IMG/VR virus record: IMGVR_UViG_3300028836_000025
Coordinates: 3,552-67,551 of that record
Length of the DNA stretch: 64,000 nucleotides
Reading direction: 5' to 3' (one strand)
From: a virus
Shown: positions 1,147 to 60,697 of the stretch, piece by piece
Layout: each line of letters opens with the position of its first letter
How positions within the stretch are numbered: position 1 is the stretch's first letter
Program-made: the position numbers and the translations under genes
Notes under the pieces: generated by a model
Databases searched by the model: none
What the model was told of the DNA's origin: nothing
Seen by the model: the letters and a program-made list of their open reading frames with translations, nothing else

Positions 1147-1527
1147 ATGGATAAAAAAGAATTAAAGATCAAGCTGGAAGCACTTGAAGTCAACGTCGAA
1201 GTAAGACGTGATGAACTAGGTTTTGCTATGTCAGCCGCGCAAATAGCGAGAGAAGAGTTAGCTAACTTAGGTAAACCAGTGATAACTGAAGATGTCGCAA
1301 ACCAAATAGTAAGTAAAGTATGTGAAGCTTTTCAAGAAGTATTATGTAATATTGACTCTGACAGCATAGAGATCGATTTTAGCATGGACTATGATAACCG
1401 AATTGTAGTAGATGGTATTAGTGGTTTTGATGAGGTAGATGCAGATGAAGACTCTATAATGGAAATATTGATAGACACTTTCAATATAGACCACAGTAAT
1501 AGCGAGGATGGTAACGATACAGATTAA
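1147..1527 (+). CDS. acidic hypothetical protein with N-terminal coiled coil
   Basis: 126-aa ORF, very D/E-rich. Confidence 0.7.
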   Translation: MDKKELKIKLEALEVNVEVRRDELGFAMSAAQIAREELANLGKPVITEDVANQIVSKVCEAFQEVLCNIDSDSIEIDFSMDYDNRIVVDGISGFDEVDADEDSIMEILIDTFNIDHSNSEDGNDTD

Positions 1528-1529
1528 GT

Positions 1530-1830
1530 GTTATACTTGAACTAGTAGACGTTTTCGCGAGCTAGTTAGTATAACCAAACCCGGCGGGGTATAACGCAGA
1601 CCCGGCGGGGTCACTAAGCGCAAAAAAGCTCGACGGAGCAAGGCTGTATATGCATGTGAACCCTGAAAATGGGGATAGCGGGTAGACAGTAACGGGTCGA
1701 GGTAGTCTATGCTACCGTAATGCCACCGAATAATAGGACGCAGGTAGCTCCTGTATTGAAGGCTAAGATCACGCAGAGAGTTGGGACCGCAGGCGTGCGG
1801 AGCCGGCAGTGACATGCCACAACTCTTTGC
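1530..1830 (+). ncRNA. candidate structured non-coding RNA
   Basis: GC-rich intergenic island with many hairpins: 1530-1575; ACCC-GGCG-GGGT at 1579-1590 and 1600-1611; GCTC-GACG-GAGC 1628-1639; three-way junction 1773-1830. Confidence 0.5.
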
Positions 1831-1836
1831 TTTAAA

Positions 1837-1983
1837 GGGGGTGAAAATGGTAACGCACACTGGACAGAAGACAGTATCTTCGCTGGAAGTTGGCCCGTAA
1901 ATCTACAAGATAGTAGGCCACCAACTCAAGCAAGACAGTATCTCAAAGCATTGCGTACGAGGGTTCGATTCCCTCCACCTCCA
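1837..1983 (+). ncRNA. tmRNA-like (tRNA-Ala-like domain) RNA, unusually short
   Basis: Acceptor stem GGGGGTG/CACCTCC with G3:U70, discriminator A1983, T-arm GAGGG-TTCGATT-CCCTC, unpaired D-loop with GG, P2-like CGCA/TGCG helix followed by a 3-nt linker; no anticodon arm. Confidence 0.7.
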
Positions 1984-1997
1984 CAAATTAAAATACT

Positions 1998-2285
1998 ATG
2001 AAAGATACAAATCAAGTACAAAAAGCCCTTGAATCCAAGGCAAAGAAAGAGCTGCAAAGAATTGTAGACGAGTTTGTTATATCACTAAATAAGCTAAACT
2101 CAACGTACCGCCAACCACCCTCGTACACTATGTGTGAGAGTCGTAACACTGATGCTAAGGTTTTTAGCTATATTAGACTTGGTTGCTTAGAGACTATACT
2201 TCACGACATGCTCGTTGAGGCATACTTAAGCCCTATGGTACACAAAAAGACACAAGAGCTATTAACAAAATTAGAATTACTATAA
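1998..2285 (+). CDS. hypothetical protein
   Basis: 95-aa ORF. Confidence 0.65.
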   Translation: MKDTNQVQKALESKAKKELQRIVDEFVISLNKLNSTYRQPPSYTMCESRNTDAKVFSYIRLGCLETILHDMLVEAYLSPMVHKKTQELLTKLELL

Positions 2286-3638: not shown

Positions 3639-4104
3639 AATAGTACCAAGAGAAGAGGGTGTCAGTTTTTCTGAACACCCTGAACTCGTACAAACGGAAA
3701 TATACCATCACTATGATGGTTACCCCCAATACTTGGGGCGTAAATTAGCAGAAATGCTAGGTGAGGTAAAAGTAGTGAATGGGCTAGCTTCAAGAGAATA
3801 TCTTGGAAGTAAAAACCTTACCACTATGGCAGCTAGACCTATACTCCAAGCTAACGGGATATCCTGCTTAGCCGCTAGTATAGTGTCTGAACTAAAGACA
3901 GAGTGTGGACAAGTATACCTAGAGATGCCTAACAAAGTGTTAGATGAAGCGTGGATTGATTTCACGTACTACATCTGGGTTAAAGTTGGTGAACCTATAT
4001 GGATCAGCATCTTTGATCACAGCGCGGAAGGGTGCACATTTGTAGGGTGCACCTTTGTAGGCACGTGTGATAAACTTTTAGAAAGATATAACGATGAGAC
4101 ATAA
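3616..4104 (+). CDS. hypothetical phage protein (HxDGYP motif family)
   Basis: MATRALI...IYHHYDGYP motif, common in uncharacterised phage early proteins. Confidence 0.7.
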   Translation: MATRALIRIVPREEGVSFSEHPELVQTEIYHHYDGYPQYLGRKLAEMLGEVKVVNGLASREYLGSKNLTTMAARPILQANGISCLAASIVSELKTECGQVYLEMPNKVLDEAWIDFTYYIWVKVGEPIWISIFDHSAEGCTFVGCTFVGTCDKLLERYNDET

Positions 4105-4957
4105 ACCAATGCTAGCATACCCTGTTAGCAATAAACCAATAGATTACGATAAGAAGGTTTTTATACAACCTAAACTTGATGGTGTTCGCTGTTTAATACA
4201 GTATGAGCCAGAAAAATACGGTGATGATAGCTATAGAGGTAAAGCGATGGCTTATTCACGCACAGGAAAAGAATGGAAGAATATAGATCATATACTTAAA
4301 GAGTTAGGACCTTTCTTTGAGACATACCCTGATGCGGTATTAGACGGAGAGCTTTACAACCACGATTTGCGAGATAACTTTGAGAAGATTATCTCTTGTG
4401 TGCGTAAAACTAAACCTACAGAAGAGCATAGAGCTGAATCTAAGAGATTGGTTCAGTTTCACTGTTATGACGTGCCTAGTAATCCCCACAGATTTGATGT
4501 TAGAAATGAATGGATTAAACTAAATGTACCTATTGCCGTAAGCTTTAAGATCGTAGAAACCCACGAGATTTATGCGGAGAAATACATGCTAGATTTGCAT
4601 AAGATTTTTCTAAAGAAGGGGTATGAAGGCTCTATAGTGCGTATAAACGGGGTGTATGAGAATAAAAGATCTCATAACTTAAGAAAAATTAAAGATTTCC
4701 AAGACTCAGAGGCTACTATAATAGACTGGGTGGAAGGAAAAGGTAAACGTAAAGGTACTATCGGTAAATTTGTTGGAGAAGATTCTGACGGAGTCGTATT
4801 CGGTATACCTGTAATGGATAAGTTTAAATACTTACAGGATAACTTTGATGAAATGAAAACATGGGTCGGTAGAGAGGCTACGTTCACATATTTTGAAAGA
4901 ACGAAGGCTAATAGTTACCGCTTCCCACTATTTAAAGCGATAAGAGATTATGAGTGA
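4094..4957 (+). CDS. lig: ATP-dependent DNA ligase
   Basis: Motif I QPKLDGVRC, LDGELY, FHCYDV, GYEGSIVR, KIK; C-terminal OB fold ending YRFP. Confidence 0.93.
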   Translation: MRHKPMLAYPVSNKPIDYDKKVFIQPKLDGVRCLIQYEPEKYGDDSYRGKAMAYSRTGKEWKNIDHILKELGPFFETYPDAVLDGELYNHDLRDNFEKIISCVRKTKPTEEHRAESKRLVQFHCYDVPSNPHRFDVRNEWIKLNVPIAVSFKIVETHEIYAEKYMLDLHKIFLKKGYEGSIVRINGVYENKRSHNLRKIKDFQDSEATIIDWVEGKGKRKGTIGKFVGEDSDGVVFGIPVMDKFKYLQDNFDEMKTWVGREATFTYFERTKANSYRFPLFKAIRDYE

Positions 4958-5236: not shown

Positions 5237-7090
5237 TTGGACAAAATAAGGTTCATAGGGGAGAGTAGTCACGTAAGTGATATACAAGCGGCAACTATAG
5301 AAGAATGCCTGCTATACTGTAAGAGCAAGTCTGTTCTTGGGGTAGATACAGAGACAGAGGGTCTTGATTTCACTCGTAATAAGATGATTATGCTCCAGAT
5401 AGGAGATAAAGAAAGACAGTTTGTTATAGACACCCGAGTTATAGATATAACACCACTTAAAGAGGTGTTTGAGAGTAAAGACATTATAAAAATCTTTCAC
5501 AACGCTAAGTTTGATTATAAGTTCCTGAAAAGATGGGGCGGAATATCAACTGAGAACATGTATGACACCTTTCTTGTAGAGAAGGTGTTAAATTGTGGTA
5601 AGAAAGATTTTAGGTACTCCTTAGCAGAATGTGTTAAGAGATACTTCAACGTAGAGCTAGATAAAACTATTAGAAGTGGTTTTATAGGGCTCTCTACTAA
5701 ACCCTATACGTTAGATCAAGTTGTATATGGTGCTGAGGATGTAGTATATCTGTGTGATATACGAGAAAAGCAGCTACCGACACTACACTTGTACTCAGTA
5801 CATCAAACCGCGAAGTTGGAGAACGCCGTAGTAAAAGTGTTTGCTGAGATCGAATACGAAGGGTTAAAGATTGATAGGGAAAGATGGATTGATATGGCAG
5901 AGGAAAATGTTAAACTAGCCTACGAGCAAGAGTTAAAGCTTGATCGCATGGTACTAGAGCATCCTCTTCTAACTCAGTACAACACCCCTATGCAAAGCGA
6001 TATGTTTGAGCCTATCGAAATGGCTCGGCGTACCGCTATTAACTGGAACTCTCCAGTACAGACGCTAGCTCTTTTTCGGAACCTAGTGCCTAGCTTAGAA
6101 AATGTAAACGGACAGAATCTTGGTAAATACGCCAAGTTTCATGAATTAATAGATGAATATATACAATACAAAAAGCGAACTAAACTCGCGAACGCTTATG
6201 GAATTAAATTCTTTGATTATGTAAGCGAAGATGGGAAGGTTCACACGAACTTCTCCCAGATTTTAGACACGGGTAGAGTGTCGTCTAGCAAGCCTAATAT
6301 GCAGCAGATACCAAGTAATAATATCTTTAGAAATTGCTTTATAGCAAAAGATGGCTGGGTGTTTGTATCTTCGGATTACTCCTCACAAGAGTTAAACGTG
6401 ATAGCGTACGGCAGTCAAGACCCTGTCTGGCTAGACGCCCTTGAAAGAGGGTTAGACCTCCACGGAGTATGCGCGGATCTAGTCTTTGAAGACAAGTGGA
6501 GAAATGCAGATGCCGTTGGTAAAAAGAAGTTACGTACTCAGATAAAAACCATTAACTTTGGTTTAGCTTATGGTATGGGACCCTTTAAACTCGCTGAGAC
6601 CTTATCTATATCTCAAGATGCAGCTCTAGAGCTTATAGAGAAATACTTTACAGAATTCCCTAATATCAGGGCATTCCTAGAAAAGTTAGGGCAATATGGT
6701 AAAGATAAAGGATTTATTTGTACCTTTAGACCCTTCTTAAGACGAAGATGGTTTAGTGACTGGTACCCAGGCATGCAGTATAGTAAAGGAAAAATGAGAG
6801 AGCTAGGTGCTATAGAGCGCGCTTCTAAAAACACCCCTATTCAGGGGTCAAGCGCCGATATGACTAAACTAGCTCTTATCTATGTCTATAATGAAATACA
6901 AGAATCTTGGTCTGACTCAGTAAAAATAGTTATGACTGTGCATGATCAAATAGATACTATATGCCGTGAAGACGTAACTGAAGCTTGGAAAATACGCATG
7001 ACAGAGCTTATGGAAAAAGCTGCGAAGGTTATAATACCCAATAGCCTGTTAAAGGCAGATACTAACATATCCCAAACATGGGAAAAATAA
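5237..7090 (+). CDS. polA: family A DNA polymerase (3'-5' exonuclease + polymerase, no 5' nuclease)
   Basis: ExoI DTETEG, ExoII HNAKFD, ExoIII YGAED; TGRVSSSKPNMQQIP; motif A DYSSQEL; motif B KTINFGLAYG; NTPIQGSSAD; motif C VHDQ. Confidence 0.95.
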   Translation: MDKIRFIGESSHVSDIQAATIEECLLYCKSKSVLGVDTETEGLDFTRNKMIMLQIGDKERQFVIDTRVIDITPLKEVFESKDIIKIFHNAKFDYKFLKRWGGISTENMYDTFLVEKVLNCGKKDFRYSLAECVKRYFNVELDKTIRSGFIGLSTKPYTLDQVVYGAEDVVYLCDIREKQLPTLHLYSVHQTAKLENAVVKVFAEIEYEGLKIDRERWIDMAEENVKLAYEQELKLDRMVLEHPLLTQYNTPMQSDMFEPIEMARRTAINWNSPVQTLALFRNLVPSLENVNGQNLGKYAKFHELIDEYIQYKKRTKLANAYGIKFFDYVSEDGKVHTNFSQILDTGRVSSSKPNMQQIPSNNIFRNCFIAKDGWVFVSSDYSSQELNVIAYGSQDPVWLDALERGLDLHGVCADLVFEDKWRNADAVGKKKLRTQIKTINFGLAYGMGPFKLAETLSISQDAALELIEKYFTEFPNIRAFLEKLGQYGKDKGFICTFRPFLRRRWFSDWYPGMQYSKGKMRELGAIERASKNTPIQGSSADMTKLALIYVYNEIQESWSDSVKIVMTVHDQIDTICREDVTEAWKIRMTELMEKAAKVIIPNSLLKADTNISQTWEK

Positions 7091-27542: not shown

Positions 27543-30500
27543 TTAATCATGGTAGTAACATAAACCAGAAGAACTAGATGTTTTCATCTTACACCTTTTA
27601 CCGTCTTTCTTAACGTGACTACATTGTGTTTTCTTACCCGTGGTGTTTTGTTTTACTTTTTGGTGTATTGTGCAGAACGTCCCGTTACCCACGGGTTTTA
27701 AAGAGCATCTCTCTCCAGCTTTATTTACAGCGGCGCACGTAGTCTTTTTACCTTTCTTTCTTTCCTGCTTTTGATCTTTAATGAAACCCTCTTCTATAGC
27801 CGCTTCTTCAGCTTCTTTTTCAATTGCCCTTTCAATTTTCTTTTTTTCTTTTCTCTCTTCTTTTTCTACTGCTTTAATTTCTTTAACCTCCCCTTTTGCT
27901 GCAACGACATCTTGGTTTTTAATACCAAAACTCCACTTGCTCCACCCTAAGAGCATAGCCACTCTTTTCCATGTCTCGTGTTCCGCGTCTAATGACTCTG
28001 ATATGTTCTGAACTTTATTATACACCCTACTTAGCGGTAGGTTTGTCACTGCCTCGGTTCCGCTGAAGGCAGCATCGTATATAGGGTTATCTATATCTGC
28101 CTTGCTCATATGGTCGATTACATCTTTATTGTATTCCCATGTTTTTAAACCGCTGTATATTTTTCTAGCTTTAATACCTATTGGCGGAGACATGTTGAGA
28201 CCCTCTATCACTACGTTGCCCCAGTCTGGGTCTGTGTAGAAAACCCCATCATCCATTTTCTCGCTCTCCTTCATGAACTTCAAGATAACGTTTTTAATCG
28301 TTGCCACACCTACTCCAGCGATACCTGACCCACGTAGTATAGTGTCTATCATACCGTTAATAACCTTCTCTTTTTTCTTATCTGTGATCTGATCCTCTTC
28401 GTCGTCGCTAAATAACGCCGCGAACAAAGCTTGCTGCAACCCGTAGAAAATCATATTTTGAATAGTCCCGTAGTACACTATCCTAGATATATTAGCTTTC
28501 GTATCTCCCCTACCGTTAACTAAATCTAAAGTGGCTTTCTTAATTAACCTATTGTACTGCATAGGCGTGTTCTGGAAAGCAAGTATAAACTTACCAAGAG
28601 GTGATGCTTGCTGCTGAGATATTTTATCTTCTCTAGTAGACTGCTGAGTTTCCTCCGCTATCTCCATCATGTCCTCAAACGCTTTTGTCTCGGCTTCGGC
28701 CTGCATCATACCCTCTTTTAGGTATGTCTTAATCCTATTTCTATATAAGGTCGCACCGCCAGTAGCGATAGCAAAACTATCTGCCACCTGAGTTGGCGTA
28801 AAACCAAGTTGTAGTAAGTACGCAGTAGCGGCTTTGAATTTATTATTCGAGTCTTTTACTTGAGCCAATAGCTCTGCGGCATTAACATCTGTCTGTATAC
28901 CCGATCGTCTCTGTTTTAAAAACGGAGAGTTCATTATCATTGCCACGTCCTTCCAGTACTGAGGCTGGTTGGCAAACGCTCCAGCTGCTTTAAGCATATT
29001 GTTATCGCTCCAGTTAACGAAGTTAACATTAGAGATCATCTGCAACATCGCAGATCTAGCGTTCAAGAACATCGTTGTACCTATAGAACCATGTATCCAG
29101 TTGGTAAAGTTATTCACTATCCTTCCACCCTTCGATCTGGTACCGCCATTCTCCATCCGCCACAAGCTATCCTCTAAAGCTTCTCTAAAATTAGAACCGT
29201 ATACAGCTTCAATTTTATTCATGTTAGCTTCAGGGAATATAATATTCTTATTATCCACCCATTGTTGTAGGTGTGTACCTCTAGCTGCGTCTAATGCTTC
29301 TTTTAAATCTAAAGCCATATTCCCTCCAGTCCAATGAGCACCGGGGTCGACCATTCCACCTGCGGCATCGCTAACAGAATTAACACCTTGGGCGAACGCT
29401 AACGCTTGTGCGTTAGATTCAACAGCGTTTACTAACGCGGTGGCGTCCGCTTTGGATAGTCCAGGTATATCAAGACCCGCTTTGGCCCAGTTGTATACTC
29501 TTATAGCGTCTTCATACGCATACTCTGTACCGGGCACTTTCTTATTAAGCTTCTTCCTTACGTCAGGCATAGCCTTCCTAAGCTTTTTCATATCGCTAGC
29601 AGCTTGTTGCTGCATTATCTTATGCCGCCTCATACCTTTTGAAAACGGGTCAAATAGGTTTTCTTTAAACCAAGCGTGATGCTTATCCCCTTGTTTCCCT
29701 TTACCCATGAAAGCGTACATAAGCCCCGCGAAGTCATCGGCTGATGGCGGAACAAAGAACTTAAATTTACCTTTGTTTTTACCACGTTGTCTAGCTTTTG
29801 CCGCCGAGAACTTTTTATGTCTACCTACACCTTTAGTTTGTTCTAATATAATATCTAAATCAAGAGCTCCCTCATCTATGATATCGGACATCTTCTTCCC
29901 TCCAGTCTGGCTGAACTTGATCTTAGCCTGTTGGACTTTGCCTTTAACGTCAAAGCGGTTAAGCATAGCTTTAACTGGTCTATTAACGTAGTAAGATGGC
30001 CCCCTCTTTATCTGATAATCGGGTTTTGATATTATAAAAGTTCCACTTTTATACTTTGTGTCCTTTCCATAATATTTTAACTCTGCGCGACTCAAGCCTA
30101 CTTCATCCCACTCCCATCCTAACTTACTAGCCCAGAACTTTGTTAACCTACTATAAAGTCTAGTTCTACTTGTTTCTTTTGAAGCAAATGTAATAGCATC
30201 AACTTCGTTATTCTTTATAAAATCAAAAACACCATTCGACACAATACTTATAACTTCATGCGCACGACCTGTGTCCAGGATTTCCATTCCTGTCTTGCTG
30301 CTTGGTTTAGCACCTTCTAGTAAAGCGAACTCCAAATACCACTGACCTCCCCCGCCCGGTTCTTTTAGCGTTATGCGGTAGTGGTTATCGCCCACCTTAA
30401 AGTTAGCGTGATTATACGTCCCGAAATTTGTTTCCGTCCACTTCAAGTCACGCTTAGTGTTCATACTAAACTTGATCTTAGCCTGTTGGACTTTGTTCTT

Positions 30501-33500
30501 AACCTCGAGTTTATTTAAAGTCGCTTTGACAGCTTGAACATTTTGTATAGCGTCGTCCGCGAAATAGAAATCGTTGTACCCTTCTCCAACCTTCTCTGCT
30601 ATCCAGTTAGCTTTTGCCGATGCTTCTGATCTACCTAAACCCACGATGTTCTTAAGCGGTATATTTAAACCCTGCGCGTCTAAGAACTGTTTGATAGCCT
30701 TAGCAGACTCAGGGGCTCTAGCAGTTAGAATGAACATGTCATCTGCTCCAAACTTGCCATAAAGCTTCATGGCTTTATTAAACAGCGGGGCTGTCTCACC
30801 TTTAACAACTTTGTTAAACTCCGAGAAGTCGAACTTAACACCTTGAGCTAATAGATCTCCACCTTGCTTTGCGAACTCCTCTGCGTTTAATTTACCTTTA
30901 GTTCCATCAGGAAGAGTGTAAAGCACATTTGATTTAGTTGTAGCCAACGTATCGTCGAAGTCTAGTACTGTAATACCCTTACTAGATTTAGAAAACATCA
31001 CGTGAACTGGGTCACCTTCCATGTCAGTGAACGTCCGAGCTCTATCTGCATACTGCATAGGGAGTAAACCTTGCCCATCACCGTAATCAACTCGTGATCC
31101 AACGAATGCCCCATTGTTATACTCCCTAACCGTAATTAGAGAACTTGCAAAATGATCTCCGGTGTTGACGAGCTGTTGTGGACTGAGATGCTCCTCTGTA
31201 ATACCATGAAGTTCACCATCCTTGTTATAACGCTCAACAGATTCTAGGAACAATACAGGTTTCCGCTTCCTAATCCCAAGATCTGAAAGCGCCTCCTTAA
31301 AAGTATCACCGACGGAGCTTAAGCCATCTGGAGTATAAGTACTCCACACCTCTATCTTGCCGCTCTCTACACTACCTCTAGTGGCACCATAAACAGTATC
31401 TAACTTTTTACCCGTCTTCTCATCAAATGAGCCCCGCACATTTCTACCTTGACTATCAACGTGATCGTTCCCAGGTATCTCGTTGTATTTTACGTTATCC
31501 CTACTCCAAAATTCTACATCCCCAGCGTCCGAGAAACCTCCTTCCCTGCTCTCGGTTTTCATAGCTAATAACTTACCATCTTTAAATATGATCTGCTTAT
31601 TCCCATACTGGTCCCAGTACTCCTCAGCGGAGTCTGTTAGTTTACCATCGGTAGATTGTACTATACACCATGGGTTAGACTTCTTACCGAAGTGCTGGTT
31701 AACCTGATCACGCACAGCAAGTAGCCCGGGGGCGGGCGGTGTACGAACATATGGGGCGCCGGGGATTATTACGTCAGAGCGCGTGTCATCTATATCATAT
31801 ATAACAATGCCATTCTTTAACTCTTGTTTGTTAGTGAACGCCGCGACCTCATCAGGGTTAGTTGTCTTCTTTCCATCAACCTCCTCGCTATACTTCTCGA
31901 TTATCTCGTTTGGATTTTTAAAAGAGAATGGGTCAAGTTTTTTGGCTTTAGCTAACCTCTCTGCTTCAATAACTTTAAACCCGTCTTCAGGCAAGCGAAG
32001 TTTATTATGAACCATATAGTGAAGAGCTAGTTTCTCAAACTTGCTTTTATGCTTTGCAGCATATATAGGACTCTCCATATCTAGGTGGAACGAAGGACTA
32101 TCTAACCACTTGAATAAATCATCAACAAGTCCTTTCGCGATCTTCTTGTTCCAAACGTTATGCTTGAGCCCTATGCGGTTATTTATCAACCTCTGCTCGT
32201 ACTCAGCCCTATGGCTTTTAGAAAACCTTACATTAGAGTACCCGTCAGGGTTTATACCAGATGTAGCTGTTTTTATATCAGCTTCAGCTATGCTCTTTAT
32301 AATTTTCCCTCTGCCAGATCTAGACGCTTTAAAAGCTTGGTCCATGACTTTAGAGTCTTTAGATCTTACAGCTATATCACGTATACTAAACTCTGTATTA
32401 GCAGCAGCCTCACCATACACCTTGCCTTTATCTTTTGGGTTAAGGCTCTCTATAGCATACAGGTCGGGGTGACCAAAAGTGGTCATGTTATAATATCGCT
32501 GAGTTGAATTGTTTCCAATGATATATCCTATAGGCATCACCTTAGTTAATTTGACCTCACCAAAGATGTTGTCCATTGTAATAGGTATAACAGCCACCGT
32601 GTACTCTTTAAACAGTGCATTAAGATCAACGTTACCATCATTCATATAAGCGTCAGTCAATCGCATAATCATATAGTTAGTAGGTATCATATGCTCATAC
32701 CTAAACTTACCTTTATACTTCTTCCCGATCTTGTCTTTGAATATGTAACCTAGGTTAGCGGCCCTCTTTAGTGGCGACTGCATGTTGCTAGCCATACCCA
32801 TCATCACCATAGCAAAATCCTCCTTATCTAGTGCTCCATCTTTAATTTGATCCTTATAATGTTGAGCTATGTCTCTTGTAACTTGTTCAGACACCGCTGC
32901 CTGCTTCTTCCTTCCAGCGTAGTCTCTATCAACCATCGCCGCCTTAGAAGTTTCAGCTAAAAGACTAGTGTTTATTTTTTTACCATCAATAGTTTGTGTC
33001 TTTTTAAGATTCCCCGCTTCAGTAAGCTGCACATCATCCCCGAAAATCTCTTTTAAAACGTTTTTATTCCAATCTTTCTTATCTTCAAAAAACTGGTATC
33101 TTTGAGCTCCATCACCCTTAACGCCAACCTCTACAGCGACTCCATCTTTAACCACAAAGTTTCCCCTACCAATCTTAGCGCTCGTTGTGTACATCCCACT
33201 TGCGTGTATAAGCATCATCAATGCTTTTTCTTTACCATATTTTTTAACCCACTTTTCACCAAGAGTAACGATCTCAACGCGACCAGTGTTTATCTTGTCT
33301 ACGTTGTCAAAGCTTTCAGCGAAGGACAAGGTTTTACCATCCCCGCCTTTTAAATCTAAAAACTCTGCTAGGTTTAGAGCTAGCTCCGCTGCCTTTACGT
33401 TATCAGTTAAATATTCGTTTAAAGTTTGTTCGGGTTTTGTATTAAGATTAGCGTGCCGTTTGTTTATCGCACCATACCTATTAACGATCTTAGCTATGTC

Positions 33501-36500
33501 TTTTCCAAGAGCGGTAACTTTACTTCTTGGATAGTGTTTACCATACACGTCTCTAACAACTTGTATTACAGCGCTCTCATCGTTAGGGTTAACTTTCTTA
33601 AGAGCCTTACTTAAAACCGGAAGGTTGTTATAAAAAGTCTTTCTCTCAAGCGGTTGAAGTTTTCTTACGGACTTACTAAACTTAACACCTGGATCCCTAT
33701 CTATTTGTTTGCCTATGATAGACACTTCGTTTTCAGCTTGAACTTGTCCAGTTAAATCTAGTATGTCTGATCTACGGTTAGATACCTCAGGAGTTTGAAT
33801 CGTCTCCATAGTGGCATCGAACCCAAGTTCAACACCCATCTCCATAGCTAACTTATCTTTTCTAGTACCCAACGTAGACGCACCTACCTTATACCCAAGT
33901 ACATCTCCCATGTCCTGACCTCTAAAGAATGCCATAACTTTCTTAGAACCAGGATATGGTAACTTAGTAATTAGAGTTGGACCAGATAGTCTGTTAGTAT
34001 TTTTAGGTAGTAAACCCTCGCTAACTAACTTATCAACCTCCGTGGACTTAGTAATCCTTTCAGACCTAGTAAATATTCTATTTTCAGGAGCTATATTACG
34101 CTCCATCTGGAGCAGAGTTTCTTTTGGGAGAAACTTAAACACAATAGGAAAGTTCTTAGTTAAAAACTCATTATAGGTTTCACTTTTACCTATCATATCT
34201 TGGATAGGTTTTTTGAGTTCAGTTCTAAAGGCTTTTTGTAGTGCTGCTTTAAACTTCTTAGAGCTTACCTCAGGAAGCTTAGTACCGAATGTCTTCGCGA
34301 CAGCTTTACGAACCTTGTCCATCATAGATTCTTCTAAACCTAATTCCGTTCTAAGTCCCGAATACTGATCTGACTCAGACTTGCCCTGTTCAACTAGTTT
34401 AGTACGCCTAGCTTGAGCAGCCATAGACATGTCCTGCTCTTCAAATGATGTTACATCGGCGTCAGTCTCTGCTGCTATTTGAATTACCGGTGCTCCTTCA
34501 GACGTCTTAGCATCGATGTCTTTCGACCCTCTCATAGCTTCGTCAACTTTATACTCCGAGTTGTACACGTTACCAGCTTTGTTACCTATCTGGCTATTTA
34601 TATACGCGAATAAGTTATCGTTCTGCTCCGGCTTAAACCTCTTTATGTGTGGTGTCATTTCAGAGTAAACCTTCTCTACGAAATCTCTTGGCACGGGTTT
34701 GACTTTGTACTTAGAAGCTATCAACGCGTCAAAGTAACCTTGCTCCTTTATCTCTTTTATAGCCGCATCTGATCCACCTCTTCTCCAAGATTTATTTGTG
34801 TGGCTAGTTCCTAGTTCTTTAACGTTTTTAACAGCCGCTTTCTTCTGGTCGGAAGACATAGATGTTTTTGTATCATCTACTTCAACCTTACCTTTAGTTG
34901 CCTTTGCTATCCCACTACTCAAAGCACCTTTATGTATACTCTTGTTATACTCTTTTAGAAAGCTGTACACATCTTTACCAGTGTCAAACTTTATCTGCTT
35001 AAATCCAGCAGCCCTAAGTATCGGTTTAATCACATTGCCAATCCTTTCAAACACACTCTCATTATATGTTATATCCCCATTTTGTATAGCATCCGACGCT
35101 AGAGTTATCCACTCATCAGGATTAGCCTTCATATACTCTGGGGTGTAGTTTTCACTAGCTCTTTGCTCCACCGTTGACCATTGACTTCCTATCTCTGTTT
35201 TAAGTTCACTAATAACATTCTCAGATATATCCCCAGCTTTCATAGCCTTTCTAAGTATACCGTGTAACAACTCGTGATTACCGACATTCACGGCTCCAGT
35301 AGCTCTTGCAACAGTTTTGTTTATGATGATCTTATCTCCTTTGATAAACCCGTCTGAAGCAGCGGCTTCCTCTCCATATCGCGCTTTAATTTGATCGATA
35401 GTCAAACTGTCGTCAACCTCTAAACCATATAAAACACTATGTTTCTTTGCAAATTCTAGATTACTTTTGAATACTTTATCAGCAACACTCTCTTTAACAG
35501 CTTCAGCTGACTTCTTCCTAGCTTTAACGTCTTTAGTTCTACCGTCAACTTTCGCGTACGTATTAATTATATCAGCAATCTGTGTTTCCACGCCCTCTAA
35601 CTTAACGTCTGCGCCTGGAACAGCAAATACACCTTTCTTTTTAGTATCACTCTCGGCTTTAGCTCGCTTCTTTTCAAGTTCTACTAAAGCTTTCCTATCG
35701 TTAATGTCATTTACCTTCGCGTCAATCTGGGTTTCTAATATCGCGTCGTTTTGTTTGGACTGCACAAAGCTGTTTAAGTTAAGATCATTCTCGACCTCGA
35801 TGTTTATTTTGGCTAAATCTTCAGGCGCTGTATTTTTATTGTTCACAATATCTTCTACAGTTTTTCTACTAACGACTTCACCGTTTATTTTATATTTAGG
35901 TGTTTGTCCTTTTAAAGATTTATACAGTATATCAGAAACATTAACAATACCTTTAGCTTCACCAATAGCCTCTAAAGTAGCGTCACCTAAATCAATTTCT
36001 TGACCCGCGGCGACTTGTCCTCCAACCTCACCCACAAAACCCCCACCCATCTCAATACTTGTTGTAGCCCCCGCTACTTTAACAGCGGTTCTTTTACCAG
36101 TAGCTTTACCAAGTCTAACAATAGAACTACCTACACCCCTAGATAAACCCATAGTTAAACCTTCAATCGCCCCTATAGTTAAACCCCTAGCTAATGAAGC
36201 AGATTTTATTCTGTCTATAGCGTCTTCATCTTCTAAGATCGCCCTTACATTCTCTTTATTAAAATCTAAATCTCCTAACTCTTCTTTTAATAAGTCGGTT
36301 AAAGTTAAACCAGTCTCCATAGCCCCCACTAAACCCGCGGTAGCTCCAGCTAAACCCCCTGTGATAGCCCCAGCCCCAGCTCCAAATACAGCACCAGGCC
36401 CAGCCCAAGCAGTTGCTAGAGCCCCAGCCCCAGCCCCAACCGTAGCGCCACCCGCAGCGACGCCTGCGGCACTCGCTATTGTTTCCGGGGCTGTTAAAGA

Positions 36501-37301
36501 AGTACCCATAGTAACTACAGATGTAGTTAAAAATTGTGGAACAAACCCAGGGTTTTGGGCTATAGCTTTAAGTGTGCCCCATATCCCACCACCCTCTTCA
36601 GCTTGAGTTTTCTGGAACTCAACCTGCTCTCTAGTAGGGTCCAGAGCATCTATATCTTCTGCGGCGGTTATATAGGCTTGCAAATCCTCATCTGATATAC
36701 TAGCTCCCTGCCTGTAAACATCGAAAGCCTCATCAACGCTTCCACCAGTCGCGTATCCCTGTTGAGCGGATACCCATAAATCTTCAAAGAAACCACCATC
36801 TTTAGGTAACTGCATCTCCCCTACGGATGCCGCTGTGCCGACCCCGTTCTCCGGTGACCATTCTCCTTTTAAGTACTGGGTGAGTTGCGCCTGCTCCGAC
36901 TTATCAAAGCCCGTGCTATCAACCCCAACCGACCTATTACCTTCGCTATCAACTAATGTTGTTGTTATATTGGCTTTTCTTTGGGAAAAAGTTCTATATC
37001 TAAGCTCGTCGTCAGTCATAGGTCTAGAAGTATAACCTCTATCAGCTAATACCGGTGGTAGACCTGGACCTTTACTAGTCGGCTCTGCCACTACAGCCTC
37101 TTCACTGCTAGGCGGAGTTGCCACTGCCTCAAAGCCATATCTATTCTTAAAACTATCTAAGTCTTTAGAGTATAACTCTTTCTCGCTTAAGCCCTGGTGT
37201 AAAGCTTTAGCGCCTTCTTCATTCCCATACTTCTGTTGAAACTCCTCGAAAGATTTACTATATAAACCTTGTTCTTGGAGCTTTTGCCATAATTCTTCCA
37301 T
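27543..37301 (-). CDS. giant (3252 aa) modular internal virion/ejection protein (polyvalent-protein-like)
   Basis: Hydrophobic G/A-rich segments, HELLH zincin motif, YEHMIP, NPWCI, HAD DFDDT...FADD domain, C-terminal tandem C-x9-C-x10-C-x2-H fingers; follows two smaller ejection-type genes. Confidence 0.8.
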   Translation of the reverse strand: MEELWQKLQEQGLYSKSFEEFQQKYGNEEGAKALHQGLSEKELYSKDLDSFKNRYGFEAVATPPSSEEAVVAEPTSKGPGLPPVLADRGYTSRPMTDDELRYRTFSQRKANITTTLVDSEGNRSVGVDSTGFDKSEQAQLTQYLKGEWSPENGVGTAASVGEMQLPKDGGFFEDLWVSAQQGYATGGSVDEAFDVYRQGASISDEDLQAYITAAEDIDALDPTREQVEFQKTQAEEGGGIWGTLKAIAQNPGFVPQFLTTSVVTMGTSLTAPETIASAAGVAAGGATVGAGAGALATAWAGPGAVFGAGAGAITGGLAGATAGLVGAMETGLTLTDLLKEELGDLDFNKENVRAILEDEDAIDRIKSASLARGLTIGAIEGLTMGLSRGVGSSIVRLGKATGKRTAVKVAGATTSIEMGGGFVGEVGGQVAAGQEIDLGDATLEAIGEAKGIVNVSDILYKSLKGQTPKYKINGEVVSRKTVEDIVNNKNTAPEDLAKINIEVENDLNLNSFVQSKQNDAILETQIDAKVNDINDRKALVELEKKRAKAESDTKKKGVFAVPGADVKLEGVETQIADIINTYAKVDGRTKDVKARKKSAEAVKESVADKVFKSNLEFAKKHSVLYGLEVDDSLTIDQIKARYGEEAAASDGFIKGDKIIINKTVARATGAVNVGNHELLHGILRKAMKAGDISENVISELKTEIGSQWSTVEQRASENYTPEYMKANPDEWITLASDAIQNGDITYNESVFERIGNVIKPILRAAGFKQIKFDTGKDVYSFLKEYNKSIHKGALSSGIAKATKGKVEVDDTKTSMSSDQKKAAVKNVKELGTSHTNKSWRRGGSDAAIKEIKEQGYFDALIASKYKVKPVPRDFVEKVYSEMTPHIKRFKPEQNDNLFAYINSQIGNKAGNVYNSEYKVDEAMRGSKDIDAKTSEGAPVIQIAAETDADVTSFEEQDMSMAAQARRTKLVEQGKSESDQYSGLRTELGLEESMMDKVRKAVAKTFGTKLPEVSSKKFKAALQKAFRTELKKPIQDMIGKSETYNEFLTKNFPIVFKFLPKETLLQMERNIAPENRIFTRSERITKSTEVDKLVSEGLLPKNTNRLSGPTLITKLPYPGSKKVMAFFRGQDMGDVLGYKVGASTLGTRKDKLAMEMGVELGFDATMETIQTPEVSNRRSDILDLTGQVQAENEVSIIGKQIDRDPGVKFSKSVRKLQPLERKTFYNNLPVLSKALKKVNPNDESAVIQVVRDVYGKHYPRSKVTALGKDIAKIVNRYGAINKRHANLNTKPEQTLNEYLTDNVKAAELALNLAEFLDLKGGDGKTLSFAESFDNVDKINTGRVEIVTLGEKWVKKYGKEKALMMLIHASGMYTTSAKIGRGNFVVKDGVAVEVGVKGDGAQRYQFFEDKKDWNKNVLKEIFGDDVQLTEAGNLKKTQTIDGKKINTSLLAETSKAAMVDRDYAGRKKQAAVSEQVTRDIAQHYKDQIKDGALDKEDFAMVMMGMASNMQSPLKRAANLGYIFKDKIGKKYKGKFRYEHMIPTNYMIMRLTDAYMNDGNVDLNALFKEYTVAVIPITMDNIFGEVKLTKVMPIGYIIGNNSTQRYYNMTTFGHPDLYAIESLNPKDKGKVYGEAAANTEFSIRDIAVRSKDSKVMDQAFKASRSGRGKIIKSIAEADIKTATSGINPDGYSNVRFSKSHRAEYEQRLINNRIGLKHNVWNKKIAKGLVDDLFKWLDSPSFHLDMESPIYAAKHKSKFEKLALHYMVHNKLRLPEDGFKVIEAERLAKAKKLDPFSFKNPNEIIEKYSEEVDGKKTTNPDEVAAFTNKQELKNGIVIYDIDDTRSDVIIPGAPYVRTPPAPGLLAVRDQVNQHFGKKSNPWCIVQSTDGKLTDSAEEYWDQYGNKQIIFKDGKLLAMKTESREGGFSDAGDVEFWSRDNVKYNEIPGNDHVDSQGRNVRGSFDEKTGKKLDTVYGATRGSVESGKIEVWSTYTPDGLSSVGDTFKEALSDLGIRKRKPVLFLESVERYNKDGELHGITEEHLSPQQLVNTGDHFASSLITVREYNNGAFVGSRVDYGDGQGLLPMQYADRARTFTDMEGDPVHVMFSKSSKGITVLDFDDTLATTKSNVLYTLPDGTKGKLNAEEFAKQGGDLLAQGVKFDFSEFNKVVKGETAPLFNKAMKLYGKFGADDMFILTARAPESAKAIKQFLDAQGLNIPLKNIVGLGRSEASAKANWIAEKVGEGYNDFYFADDAIQNVQAVKATLNKLEVKNKVQQAKIKFSMNTKRDLKWTETNFGTYNHANFKVGDNHYRITLKEPGGGGQWYLEFALLEGAKPSSKTGMEILDTGRAHEVISIVSNGVFDFIKNNEVDAITFASKETSRTRLYSRLTKFWASKLGWEWDEVGLSRAELKYYGKDTKYKSGTFIISKPDYQIKRGPSYYVNRPVKAMLNRFDVKGKVQQAKIKFSQTGGKKMSDIIDEGALDLDIILEQTKGVGRHKKFSAAKARQRGKNKGKFKFFVPPSADDFAGLMYAFMGKGKQGDKHHAWFKENLFDPFSKGMRRHKIMQQQAASDMKKLRKAMPDVRKKLNKKVPGTEYAYEDAIRVYNWAKAGLDIPGLSKADATALVNAVESNAQALAFAQGVNSVSDAAGGMVDPGAHWTGGNMALDLKEALDAARGTHLQQWVDNKNIIFPEANMNKIEAVYGSNFREALEDSLWRMENGGTRSKGGRIVNNFTNWIHGSIGTTMFLNARSAMLQMISNVNFVNWSDNNMLKAAGAFANQPQYWKDVAMIMNSPFLKQRRSGIQTDVNAAELLAQVKDSNNKFKAATAYLLQLGFTPTQVADSFAIATGGATLYRNRIKTYLKEGMMQAEAETKAFEDMMEIAEETQQSTREDKISQQQASPLGKFILAFQNTPMQYNRLIKKATLDLVNGRGDTKANISRIVYYGTIQNMIFYGLQQALFAALFSDDEEDQITDKKKEKVINGMIDTILRGSGIAGVGVATIKNVILKFMKESEKMDDGVFYTDPDWGNVVIEGLNMSPPIGIKARKIYSGLKTWEYNKDVIDHMSKADIDNPIYDAAFSGTEAVTNLPLSRVYNKVQNISESLDAEHETWKRVAMLLGWSKWSFGIKNQDVVAAKGEVKEIKAVEKEERKEKKKIERAIEKEAEEAAIEEGFIKDQKQERKKGKKTTCAAVNKAGERCSLKPVGNGTFCTIHQKVKQNTTGKKTQCSHVKKDGKRCKMKTSSSSGLCYYHD
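29914..29940. repeat. 27-bp exact direct repeat, copy 1 (within KVQQAKIKF coding)
   Basis: AACTTGATCTTAGCCTGTTGGACTTTG, identical at 30469-30495. Confidence 0.9.
30469..30495. repeat. 27-bp exact direct repeat, copy 2
   Basis: Identical to 29914-29940. Confidence 0.9.
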
Positions 37302-60443: not shown

Positions 60444-60697
60444 TCCACTAAAACTATATCTCTAGCGCGTATAACGTAGTACATGGTATCTTTCCATGTT
60501 ATCCCGTGTCCAGCGTGTTTATCGTAGAACACCGTGTCCTTCGCTTTAACCCCCTCTACTAGGTTTCCAACCGAGATTATAGTAGCCTTTACATACCTAT
60601 TGTCACTATCTAGAGCTTCAGTGAGAATTAACCCACCAATTTTCTTTGGCCCTATTTTCTCTTTATCTACTATTACGTAATCGTTAATGGCTTTCAT
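60440..60697 (-). CDS. groES: co-chaperonin GroES
   Basis: MKAINDYVIV...GGLIL...IISVG...VK.KD.V.Y...YYVIR.RDIV; next to groEL. Confidence 0.88.
   Translation of the reverse strand: MKAINDYVIVDKEKIGPKKIGGLILTEALDSDNRYVKATIISVGNLVEGVKAKDTVFYDKHAGHGITWKDTMYYVIRARDIVLVE

What the first reader, a model, noticed from the sequence alone, without database searches (positions are those of the whole stretch)
1837..1983. 147-nt mini-tmRNA: complete alanine tRNA-like domain with a drastically reduced interior
Seen: GGGGGTG/CACCTCC-A acceptor stem with G3:U70, perfect T-arm, stemless D-loop and a P2-like helix. Established: this is the architecture of the tmRNA tRNA-like domain, and tmRNAs are usually about 350 nt or more. 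Here only about 95 nt lie inside. They contain two copies of AAGACAGTATCT (hairpins with a CAGUA loop, at 1868 and 1932) flanking an AGTTGG/CCAACT helix. No reading frame ends in an LAA-type degron. Possible resume frames are AGTT|GGC CCG TAA (1888-1900) or one ending in tandem TAG TAG (1911-1916). CCA is not encoded. Inference: it may rescue stalled ribosomes without degradation tagging, decoy SmpB/AlaRS/EF-Tu, or counter tRNA-targeting defences.
Basis: partly seen in the sequence, partly recalled or inferred. Interest (0 to 1): 0.85.

Follow-up and report, generated by a model that had tools for sequence, protein, structure and literature searches.

The report
Tag-less mini-tmRNA of marine phages
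A marine phage encodes a small RNA that copies only the tRNA-like end of the bacterial ribosome-rescue RNA (tmRNA) and always sits behind a second, unclassified structured RNA; tag-less copies of this kind are known from one mycobacteriophage and probably jam or bypass the host's rescue-and-tag system.

Summary
Window 1837-1983 (+) is a complete tmRNA tRNA-like domain (TLD): a 7-bp acceptor stem with G3:U70, discriminator A, a T-arm, a stemless D-loop and a P2 helix. Rfam tmRNA scores 41.1 bits (E 5e-15) with only about 100 nt inside instead of 326. It is not a remnant. The same TLD occurs in 27 of 119 metagenome stretches and three viral contigs. Its ends are nearly invariant, but the interior ranges from 16 to 95 nt (total 68-147 nt) and holds no conserved reading frame. 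The window's 12-nt repeat flanks a lineage-specific insertion at the P2 tip. The kind is known: mycobacteriophage DS6A has a 'TLD only' tmRNA, and a similar molecule inhibits tmRNA in E. coli. What is new is the size of this marine-phage family and its fixed partner. A ~200-nt structured RNA (window 1628-1830) lies directly upstream; 13 of its 33 pairs show compensatory changes and it has no Rfam match. It ends 6-7 nt before G1 of the TLD. Best reading: RNase P releases the TLD from a composite precursor, and the TLD engages host SmpB/AlaRS and blocks or bypasses tagging. The partner RNA's role is unknown.

The parts
1837..1983 (+). TLD-only tmRNA homologue (147 nt), running from G1 to discriminator A
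   Evidence: Rfam RF00023 41.1 bits, E 5.4e-15. The same TLD frame occurs in 27 metagenome loci and 3 viral contigs.
1837..1843 (+). acceptor stem 5' strand; G3 is G1839
   Evidence: Pairs with 1976-1982. G1839 lies opposite T1980, giving G3:U70. Invariant in 15 of 15 unique sequences.
1844..1857 (+). D-loop analogue (AAAATGGTA, no D-stem) and 5' strand of P2
   Evidence: Rfam alignment; folds; consensus structure.
1858..1951 (+). hypervariable interior at the P2 tip; in the window it holds two AGA-CAGUA-UCU hairpin modules (1868-1879, 1932-1943) flanking a central hairpin (1888-1926)
   Evidence: Repeat found. The interior is 16 to 95 nt in relatives and has no shared frame.
1952..1958 (+). 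3' strand of P2
1959..1975 (+). T-arm (GAGGG / TTCGATT / CCCTC)
   Evidence: The second pair changes from A-U to G-C in L028, L068 and L112.
1976..1983 (+). acceptor stem 3' strand plus discriminator A; followed by CAA, so CCA is not encoded
   Evidence: The three bases after A are CAA in 19, CTA in 5 and CCA in 3 of 27.
1628..1830 (+). conserved upstream structured RNA of unknown class. Parts: 5' hairpin 1628-1639 (GACG loop); variable stem 1644-1689; near-invariant three-way core 1690-1772; long 3' stem 1773-1783 with 1820-1830 enclosing two hairpins
   Evidence: Alignments. 33 consensus pairs, 13 with compensatory changes. 98.6% of cells paired, 0 of 500 shuffles as good, slid controls 33-45%. 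No Rfam match at E<=10.
1831..1836 (+). short linker (TTTAAA; TTTACAT in most relatives) between the upstream RNA and G1; presumed RNase P leader
   Evidence: Spacing is conserved in the 22 unique sequences. Cleavage is inferred, not shown.
1531..1627 (+). non-coding lead-in: a long hairpin, then two direct copies of CA(A/G)ACCCGGCGGGGT (1576-1590, 1597-1611) and ACTAAGCG; possible promoter or regulatory region
   Evidence: CCCGGCGGGGT-NACTAA(G/A)CG is also seen in L025, L103 and L107. Function not tested.
1998..2285 (+). 95-aa ORF of unknown function, starting 14 nt after the TLD; the conserved downstream neighbour
   Evidence: Homologues in L002-L005 and in 21 of 27 family loci. No Pfam or PHROG match.

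Best explanation
Window 1837-1983 is a functional phage gene for a 'TLD-only' tmRNA. It copies the alanine-accepting tRNA-like domain of transfer-messenger RNA and carries no tag-coding message and no pseudoknots. It is probably transcribed together with the ~200-nt structured RNA directly upstream (1628-1830). Host RNase P would release it at G1837, a 3' nuclease would trim it, and the host CCA-adding enzyme would complete the end (all inferred). The mature Y-shaped RNA presents the G3:U70 acceptor stem, the T-arm and the D-loop/P2 junction. It should therefore bind host SmpB and probably AlaRS and EF-Tu (inferred from the anatomy). With no reading frame to hand over, the most likely net effect is competition with the host's own tmRNA for SmpB. 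That would suppress degradation tagging of proteins during infection (inferred; a similar TLD-only molecule is reported to inhibit tmRNA in E. coli). The interior at the tip of P2 is a tolerated insertion site. The window's two CAGUA hairpins and central hairpin are lineage-specific cargo there, not a message. The role of the upstream partner RNA is unknown.
For: Identity: Rfam tmRNA aligns end to end with only TLD columns, at 41.1 bits and E 5.4e-15. The 81-nt relatives score 48.8 bits, above the gathering score. Selection: 27 of 119 metagenome stretches and 3 viral contigs (own, G003, L189) carry it. The 3' 33 nt were not part of the search pattern, yet are 97.9% identical on average over 27 loci. 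The first 270 nt of the adjacent ORF are 77% identical, and its third codon positions 68%. The T-stem shows one compensatory change, A-U to G-C. G3:U70 and A73 are invariant. Tag-less: total length is 68, 81, 82, 84, 122-126 or 147 nt, and no frame is shared among 15 unique sequences. All size variants fold to the same Y shape. Accessory gene: the 100%-complete relative G001 lacks it. Precedent: DS6A carries an 83-nt TLD-only element at 43.2 bits. Passages in PMC4131195 and PMC11915505 say a similar molecule strongly inhibits tmRNA in E. coli, perhaps by titrating SmpB. A passage in PMC3895274 reports peptidyl transfer to a TLD-only tmRNA in vitro. The phage has no SmpB of its own, so it must use the host's. 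Weak expression hint: contigs from RNA libraries of 4 studies cover 1592-1834 and 1828-1944.
Against: No binding, charging, processing or phenotype was tested, and the host is unknown. The inhibition result comes from another molecule in E. coli and is known to me only through two citing papers; Mao et al. 2009 is not held. At the D-loop/P2 junction the family reads ...TAACGCA/TGCGTACG, whereas the Rfam consensus shows ...UUCGAC/GGACG, so SmpB recognition is not assured. CCA is encoded in only 3 of 27 loci. The strict linkage to the upstream RNA is not explained by a simple decoy model, and DS6A has no such partner. The RNA-library contigs cannot prove transcription, ends or strand. Their restriction to the RNA region may only reflect that flanking genes of relatives are less than 85% alike. 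The family loci were found with a pattern in the TLD 5' part, so conservation of that part is partly by ascertainment.
Confidence: 0.5

Rival explanations
1. Tag-less ribosome rescue. The Ala-charged TLD with host SmpB and EF-Tu enters stalled ribosomes and accepts the nascent chain. The complex is then resolved by host release or hydrolase factors or by drop-off. Ribosomes are freed without marking phage proteins for degradation. This is the role suggested for CDS-less mitochondrial tmRNAs.
For: G3:U70, A73 and the T-arm are invariant, which is what charging and EF-Tu delivery need. Peptidyl transfer to a TLD-only tmRNA occurs in vitro (passage in PMC3895274). CDS-less tmRNAs are retained together with SmpB in mitochondria (passage in PMC11915505). 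Other Flavobacteriia-type phages carry full tmRNAs, so extra rescue capacity may be useful to phages (Calle_1).
Against: The citing passages say the TLD-only molecule tested in E. coli inhibited tmRNA whether or not it was chargeable. The phage encodes no RF-1/ArfB-type hydrolase to finish the job. Nothing here separates rescue from inhibition.
Confidence: 0.2
2. Processing and stability handle. The functional product is the upstream ~200-nt RNA. The TLD serves mainly as an RNase P site that defines that RNA's 3' end, comparable to tRNA-like elements that mature other non-coding RNAs (recalled comparison), or as a transcript stabiliser.
For: The linkage is strict. Every family locus with at least 149 nt of upstream sequence has the upstream RNA (27 of 27, counting the divergent L072 type). 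The spacing from its last helix to G1 is fixed at 6-7 nt. In some relatives ordinary tRNAs follow directly, as in a processed RNA operon.
Against: Any tRNA would serve as an RNase P site. Here the tmRNA-specific form is kept almost unchanged across the family: no anticodon arm, G3:U70, and a better match to tmRNA than to tRNA. DS6A keeps a TLD-only RNA without any upstream RNA.
Confidence: 0.12
3. Decoy against RNA-targeting defence. The TLD, and the neighbouring tRNA-like RNAs in relatives, soak up or replace targets of host nucleases that cut tRNA or tmRNA during abortive infection.
For: In relatives the locus holds tRNA-Asp, tRNA-Ser and further tRNA-like RNAs next to the TLD. It is an accessory, mosaic locus.
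Against: No defence or counter-defence gene was identified nearby. No nuclease known to me targets the TLD specifically. The variable part is the P2 tip, not the conserved TLD.
Confidence: 0.07
4. A working miniature tmRNA. The interior of the longer variants still templates a very short tag: the window's GCC CGT AAA TCT ACA AGA TAG TAG, or in L118 and L028 a frame ending ...IFAA-stop.
For: From the GCA at nt 18, L118 and L028 read AHWT(E/G)D(Y/S)IFAA-stop. From a later GCC they read Ala-Ala-stop. Two-residue Ala-Ala tags exist in some bacteria (passage in PMC11915505).
Against: No frame is shared across the 15 unique sequences. The six unique 81-84-nt forms have no GCN-to-stop frame at all. 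The window's frame is unique to it, and its GCC start lies where a stem is predicted. Differences between L118 and L028 fit hairpin constraints (loop changes, G-U). There is no pseudoknot, and the GCA start lies inside P2.
Confidence: 0.04
5. A decayed remnant of a full tmRNA, a phage attachment site copied from a host ssrA 3' end, or an odd or intron-bearing tRNA-Ala.
For: Distantly related Flavobacteriia phages carry full-length tmRNA with a nearly identical 3' end (Calle_1: 86.6 bits, 362 nt). tmRNA genes are common integration sites (passage in PMC11915505).
Against: Both halves of the TLD are intact and far better conserved than the neighbouring gene, with a compensatory change. The phage has no tyrosine integrase. 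Calle_1 is only remotely related: the DNA polymerases match at E 8e-8 over about 120 residues. ARAGORN finds no tRNA with an anticodon at any of these elements.
Confidence: 0.02

Closest known systems
'TLD only' tmRNA of Mycobacterium phage DS6A (tmRNA Website entry; Hudson et al. 2014, PMC4131195; 'Standard, no CDS' form in PMC11915505)
   Same: Phage-encoded, standard (not permuted) order, and little more than acceptor stem, D-loop, short P2 and T-arm. Size is 83 nt against 68-147 nt here. The Rfam tmRNA score is just under the cut-off (43.2 bits against 41.1-48.8). There is no tag frame.
   Different: The phage lineage and host phylum are unrelated. The DS6A element starts 10 nt after the preceding gene and has no upstream structured RNA. 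The family here is large, polymorphic in size and sits beside tRNAs.
CDS-less tmRNAs of jakobid/oomycete mitochondria and of two Mallomonadaceae plastids (~65 bp)
   Same: The tmRNA is reduced to the tRNA-like part with no tag reading frame. Retention implies a function with SmpB (passage in PMC11915505).
   Different: Most mitochondrial genes are permuted two-piece forms and sit in organelle genomes with a dedicated imported SmpB. Here it is a one-piece gene in a lytic-type phage that has no SmpB.
Full-length phage tmRNAs (e.g. Cellulophaga phage Calle_1; mycobacteriophage Bxz1 group; permuted forms in marine myophages, PMC9004378)
   Same: Phage-borne ssrA homologues. The 3' end of the Calle_1 TLD is 30 of 32 nt identical to the window's.
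   Different: Those keep the tag frame and pseudoknot body (362 nt, 86.6 bits). The window element lacks both.
tRNA-Ala
   Same: G3:U70, discriminator A, T-arm.
   Different: It has no D-stem and no anticodon arm. It is not called by ARAGORN or the Rfam tRNA model. Where the anticodon arm would be, there is a helix with a tip of 16-95 variable nt.
Bacterial Y RNA-like YrlA (tRNA-like module bound by Rsr/Ro60)
   Different: No Rfam Y-RNA match and no TROVE-domain protein in the phage. Here the tRNA mimic has free acceptor ends with alanine identity, rather than being embedded in a Ro-binding stem (the latter is recalled).

Membership tests
tmRNA (Rfam RF00023) | 7-bp acceptor stem with G3:U70 and discriminator A (alanine identity) | tested here: met
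   1837-1843 pairs with 1976-1982; G1839 lies opposite T1980; A1983 is the discriminator. Invariant in 15 of 15 unique family sequences.
tmRNA (Rfam RF00023) | T-arm with a tRNA-type T-loop, D-loop without a stem, and a P2 helix leaving the TLD | tested here: met
   Rfam alignment, folds and consensus structure. The junction letters differ from the Rfam consensus.
tmRNA (Rfam RF00023) | score at or above the curated gathering threshold (47 bits) | tested here: not met
   The window scores 41.1 bits. The 81-nt relatives score 48.8 bits and pass.
tmRNA (Rfam RF00023) | mRNA-like domain: resume codon, tag reading frame, in-frame stop | tested here: not met
   No frame is shared by the 15 unique sequences. 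The six unique 81-84-nt forms have no GCN-to-stop frame. The four 68-nt forms have only unshared frames of 2-4 codons. The window's ARKSTR-stop is unique to it.
tmRNA (Rfam RF00023) | pseudoknot body (PK1-PK4) | tested here: not met
   Only 101 nt stand in place of 326 model positions. The interior falls to 16 nt in relatives. Predicted folds are simple rods or hairpins.
tmRNA (Rfam RF00023) | alanylation, SmpB and EF-Tu binding, entry into stalled ribosomes | not testable with these tools
   No RNA-protein tool is available. The phage has no SmpB gene and the host is unknown.
TLD-only ('standard, no CDS') tmRNA, DS6A type | one-piece gene holding the complete TLD and nothing that can template a tag | tested here: met
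   DS6A run through the same search gives the same picture: 83 nt, 43.2 bits, model 1-374.
TLD-only ('standard, no CDS') tmRNA, DS6A type | inhibits the host tmRNA-SmpB system | not testable with these tools
   Known only from passages citing Mao et al. 2009; the paper itself is not held.
tRNA | cloverleaf with an anticodon arm | tested here: not met
   ARAGORN finds no gene in the window or at the family elements. There is no Rfam tRNA match at the element.
permuted (two-piece) tmRNA (RF04321) | 3' TLD half placed upstream of the 5' half and coding piece | tested here: not met
   Only a partial 16.2-bit match to the acceptor-piece columns. Both TLD halves are in standard order.
Any Rfam 15 family (for the upstream RNA 1628-1830) | covariance-model match | tested here: not met
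   Nothing at E<=10 in window 1500-2100 or L021 8100-8480 apart from the TLD itself.

The most novel reading that the evidence does not exclude
The ~200-nt upstream RNA and the TLD may be two halves of one previously undescribed phage system aimed at trans-translation. The partner RNA could supply what the missing tmRNA body normally does, or control the TLD's release, for example as a sensor or a ribosome- or protein-binding module. More broadly, TLD-only RNAs may be a widespread, overlooked class. Similar elements of 67-69 nt also sit in bacterial chromosomes beside ordinary tRNAs, in genomes that have their own full tmRNA.
Probability: 0.2. Interest if true: 0.8.

Novelty: new variant of a known kind. 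Interest (0 to 1): 0.58.

Why it matters
TLD-only tmRNAs are treated as rarities. The 2025 tmRNA database lists 9 'standard, no CDS' sequences among 97,179, and 79 phage sequences in all. The default settings of ARAGORN and Rfam miss the window's copy. This suggests that phage interference with ribosome rescue is more common than catalogued. The family also offers a natural series for experiment: 68 to 147 nt, an invariant TLD and a free-varying P2 tip. That series could show what the bare TLD does to SmpB, AlaRS and stalled ribosomes. The tightly linked upstream RNA has strong covariation support and no Rfam family, so it is a candidate new RNA class with a defined partner. If the link is functional, it gives a handle on how phages manage host translation quality control.

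Tried and rejected
1. Default ARAGORN and Rfam gathering scans of the window gave nothing. The element shows only with permissive filters.

2. My first gapped TLD pattern in viral contigs gave 0 hits. Upstream-core patterns found only the G003 contig. The upstream 126-aa ORF found no relatives.

3. Upstream RNA as the missing tmRNA body or a permuted piece: no Rfam tmRNA or permuted-tmRNA match. blastn-short against the Calle_1 tmRNA and a crAss permuted tmRNA gave only 7-10-mers outside the TLD. No frame is conserved (read from the alignments). Rejected.

4. Base pairing between the upstream core (GTAATGC) and the TLD (GCATTGC) would give 7 bp. It competes with P2, and L072/L189 and L093 carry uncompensated mismatches. 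Rejected.

5. Co-variation of interior type with the upstream variable modules: the modules assort independently (read). Rejected.

6. TLD-like 8-9-mers in the variable stem: GGTGAAAT, TGAAAATGG, TCCACCTC. Shuffle P was 0.07, 0.01 and 0.06, and 0.3-0.66 for three other types. Too weak to use.

7. Minus-strand ORF 1531-1860. Long open minus frames occur in many relatives. However, G-U pairs fit only the + strand, and 1-nt indels sit inside otherwise identical sequence. This is not coding.

8. Sigma-70-type promoter and terminator scan: nothing above shuffles near the RNA.

9. Read laying: the flanking ORFs (1500-1591, 2013-2300) have no cover in the four RNA runs. The contig ends do not coincide between studies. 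The X16 contig over 1957-1988 belongs to an unrelated permuted tmRNA. No conclusion on RNA ends or level was drawn.

10. attP reading: no tyrosine integrase.

11. No SmpB, RF-1/ArfB or TROVE gene in the phage.

12. Host identification failed. The exact 3' 25-mer occurs in tmRNAs of many phyla.

Mao et al. 2009 is not held.

14. Literature searches found no paper on a marine-phage TLD-only family or on the upstream RNA. Supplementary Table S2 of PMC11915505 could not be seen. It may list further phage 'no CDS' entries.

Full report
WHAT IS THERE. The window is almost all of a 67,551-base virus record that CheckV rates complete. Its + strand carries a replication module: ATP-dependent ligase 4094-4957, family-A DNA polymerase 5237-7090, ERF, primase-helicase, thymidylate synthase and RNR. 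The - strand carries structural genes: terminase, portal, a virion protein and two giant ORFs.

Between a 126-aa ORF ending at 1527 and a 95-aa ORF starting at 1998 lies 470 nt with no convincing coding frame. The default ARAGORN and Rfam scans report nothing. With permissive filters the Rfam tmRNA model aligns from its first to its last position over 1837-1986, at 41.1 bits and E 5.4e-15. [quoted passage not shown]

IT IS A CONSERVED GENE, NOT A REMNANT. The downstream ORF led to four related viral contigs. One of them (G003) has the same TLD at the same place, but it is only 81 nt long and scores 48.8 bits, above Rfam's threshold. G001 is 100% complete and lacks it, and G004 lacks it too. 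G002 carries different tRNA-like RNAs at that spot. The element is therefore an accessory gene.

Of these, 26 have the full TLD by a strict script and one more (L079) has a T-loop variant. The other 92 are chance hits or ordinary tmRNAs. A third viral contig (L189, 64 kb) also carries it.

Lengths among the 26 strict metagenome loci are 68 nt (6 loci), 81 (13), 82 (1), 84 (2), and 122, 123, 124 and 126 (1 each). The window's copy is 147 nt. The 3' 33 nt were not in the search pattern, yet are 97.9% identical on average across 27 loci. Over 21 loci, the first 270 nt of the neighbouring ORF are 77% identical and its third codon positions 68%. The one change in the T-stem is compensatory, A-U to G-C. 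G3:U70 and A73 never vary. All size classes fold to the same Y shape.

NO MESSAGE. The length differences all lie at the tip of P2. No reading frame that starts with GCN and ends in a stop is shared among the 15 unique sequences. The six unique 81-84-nt forms have none at all, and the window's ARKSTR-stop is unique to it.

The 84-nt form has a single GAGA-CAGUA-UCUC hairpin on P2. The 122-147-nt forms carry extra hairpins inserted there. In the window a 12-nt direct repeat flanks the insert. One curiosity remains: L118 and L028 read AHWT(E/G)D(Y/S)IFAA-stop from a GCA inside P2. Their differences fit hairpin constraints, and I rate a working mini-tag as unlikely.

CCA is encoded in 3 of 27 loci; the others read CAA (19) or CTA (5).

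THE PARTNER RNA. Directly upstream (window 1628-1830) lies a second conserved RNA. Of the 28 loci tabulated, 26 contain its core 10-mer. L072 (identical to L189) has a shortened, divergent version. L113 has only 4 nt of upstream sequence.

The RNA is a string of closed domains:
- a 4-bp hairpin with a GACG loop;
- a stem of variable size, with at least five alternative sequences, one reduced to a 5-bp hairpin;
- a three-way core that is almost invariant in sequence;
- a long stem that encloses two hairpins.

A 6-7-nt linker then leads to G1 of the TLD. RNAalifold predicts 33 pairs on 22 distinct sequences, and 13 of them show changes on both sides. In total 98.6% of cells are paired, against 91.0% in shuffles. 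None of 500 shuffles reaches the observed values for four of five measures. Sliding the partners by 1-3 columns drops pairing to 33-45%. Conserved G-U pairs place the RNA on the + strand.

It matches no Rfam family at E<=10, and blastn finds nothing like it in cultured phages. Its variable modules and the TLD interior types assort independently, so pairing between them is unlikely. I could not assign it a function.

EXPRESSION. Contigs from RNA libraries of four studies cover 1592-1834 (three studies) and 1828-1944 (one study; this includes the window-type interior). This is a weak hint only. Contigs cannot show ends or strand. The uncovered flanks may simply be too diverged in the relatives that those runs hold.

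COMPARISON WITH WHAT IS KNOWN. Passages I read in PMC4131195 list Mycobacterium phage DS6A as 'TLD only'. They state that a similar molecule, chargeable or not, strongly inhibits tmRNA, perhaps by titrating SmpB (Mao et al. 2009). PMC11915505 repeats this. It also reports CDS-less mitochondrial and plastid tmRNAs, and counts 9 'standard, no CDS' sequences among 97,179. I could not read Mao et al. or the supplementary tables.

Run through the same search, DS6A gives an 83-nt match at 43.2 bits. It lies 10 nt after the preceding gene and has no upstream RNA. A passage in PMC3895274 reports peptidyl transfer to a TLD-only tmRNA in vitro.

Cellulophaga phage Calle_1 carries a full 362-nt tmRNA whose 3' end is nearly identical to the window's. 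That phage is only remotely related to this one. The upstream RNA shows no similarity to the body of that tmRNA.

So the element belongs to a known but rarely catalogued kind. Three things are new: the size and polymorphism of the family, its marine-phage lineage, and the obligatory partner RNA.

MECHANISM. Shown here: the anatomy, the conservation, the lack of a message, the linkage to the partner RNA, and the absence from the phage of SmpB, a tyrosine integrase, an RF-1-type factor and a TROVE-domain protein.

Inferred: co-transcription, RNase P cleavage at G1837, CCA addition, binding of host SmpB/AlaRS/EF-Tu, and competition with host tmRNA so that tagging is suppressed.

The rivals are tag-less rescue, a processing handle for the partner RNA, a nuclease decoy and a working mini-tag. 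They are listed with odds in their own section. The first two are the serious ones, and this work does not separate them from the decoy model.

SIDE FINDING. The exact 3' 25-mer occurs in 51 bacterial genome contigs. Most are tmRNAs of 343-420 nt. One (L149) is an ordinary tRNA-Ala. Four hold an element of 67-69 nt with the same acceptor stem and T-arm that ARAGORN does not call.

Each of those four genomes also has a full tmRNA at 146-220 bits. The short element scores 36-43 bits, above every other tRNA-sized hit in those genomes (34.5 bits or less). The tool flagged one of the four genomes (G006) as unpublished, so that count rests partly on it. In G008 the element lies next to tRNA-Phe among housekeeping genes, not in a prophage. 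TLD-only-like RNAs may therefore be wider than phages.

VERDICT. This is a new variant of a known kind, with interest of about 0.6. The unexplained partner RNA is the most promising part.

Noticed in passing
window 1628-1830 (+): A conserved ~200-nt structured RNA lies directly upstream of the TLD. It has 13 compensatory pairs, a near-invariant three-way core and no Rfam family. It is present in every family locus with enough upstream sequence.
   Followed up: yes
window 1531-1627: A long hairpin is followed by two direct copies of CA(A/G)ACCCGGCGGGGT (1576-1590, 1597-1611) and ACTAAGCG. The same motif precedes the upstream RNA in L025, L103 and L107. It may be a promoter or a protein-binding site.
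   Followed up: partly
L103:399-470, L112:3291-3362, L057:1900-1992, L117:1957-2049: In some relatives ordinary tRNA genes follow the TLD within about 10 nt: tRNA-Asp(GUC) and tRNA-Ser(UGA). The locus therefore looks like a small processed RNA operon.
   Followed up: partly
L014:1102-1203 (also L025, L093); L003:1123-1209 and L003:2866-2979: Further tRNA-like RNAs have an acceptor stem and T-arm, but ARAGORN does not call them. The two in L003 share the acceptor sequence ACACGTA and sit where other relatives have the TLD.
   Followed up: partly
L118:642-765(-) and L028:1084-1209(+): These 124- and 126-nt TLD variants contain a frame from the GCA in P2 that reads AHWT(E/G)D(Y/S)IFAA-stop, a tmRNA-tag-like ending. 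It is not shared by the other variants.
   Followed up: partly
L132, L143, L150 (and L140, in a genome flagged unpublished); also L210-L213: Elements of 67-69 nt resembling a TLD-only tmRNA occur in bacterial chromosomes that also hold a full tmRNA. They score 36-43 bits against tmRNA and are called neither tRNA nor tmRNA. In G008 the element is next to tRNA-Phe among housekeeping genes.
   Followed up: partly
variable stem of the upstream RNA (window 1644-1689; L021, L024 types): Three alternative versions of this stem each contain an 8-9-mer identical to part of the TLD acceptor/D-loop region. Shuffle P was 0.01-0.07, so this is unexplained and may be chance. The L024-type module also occurs upstream of the 5' hairpin in L014, L025 and L127.
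   Followed up: partly
L180 (Cellulophaga phage Calle_1, NC_062744): The annotated tmRNA (record 43002-43361) is offset by about 50 nt from the Rfam match (L180:2169-2530, record 42950-43311) and overlaps the next CDS.
   Followed up: no
L181 (crAss-like phage cr114_1): A RAGATH-9 RNA (1013-1180, 153.7 bits) lies just upstream of a permuted tmRNA (1469-1787). An ordinary tRNA (1537-1608) lies within the span of that tmRNA.
   Followed up: no
window 27543-37301(-), 42264-47897(-), 60684-62252(-): There are two giant ORFs (3252 and 1877 aa) in the structural arm and a GroEL-like chaperonin gene. The DNA polymerase is closest (about 30% identity) to a cyanophage and, after it, crAss-like phages.
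   Followed up: no
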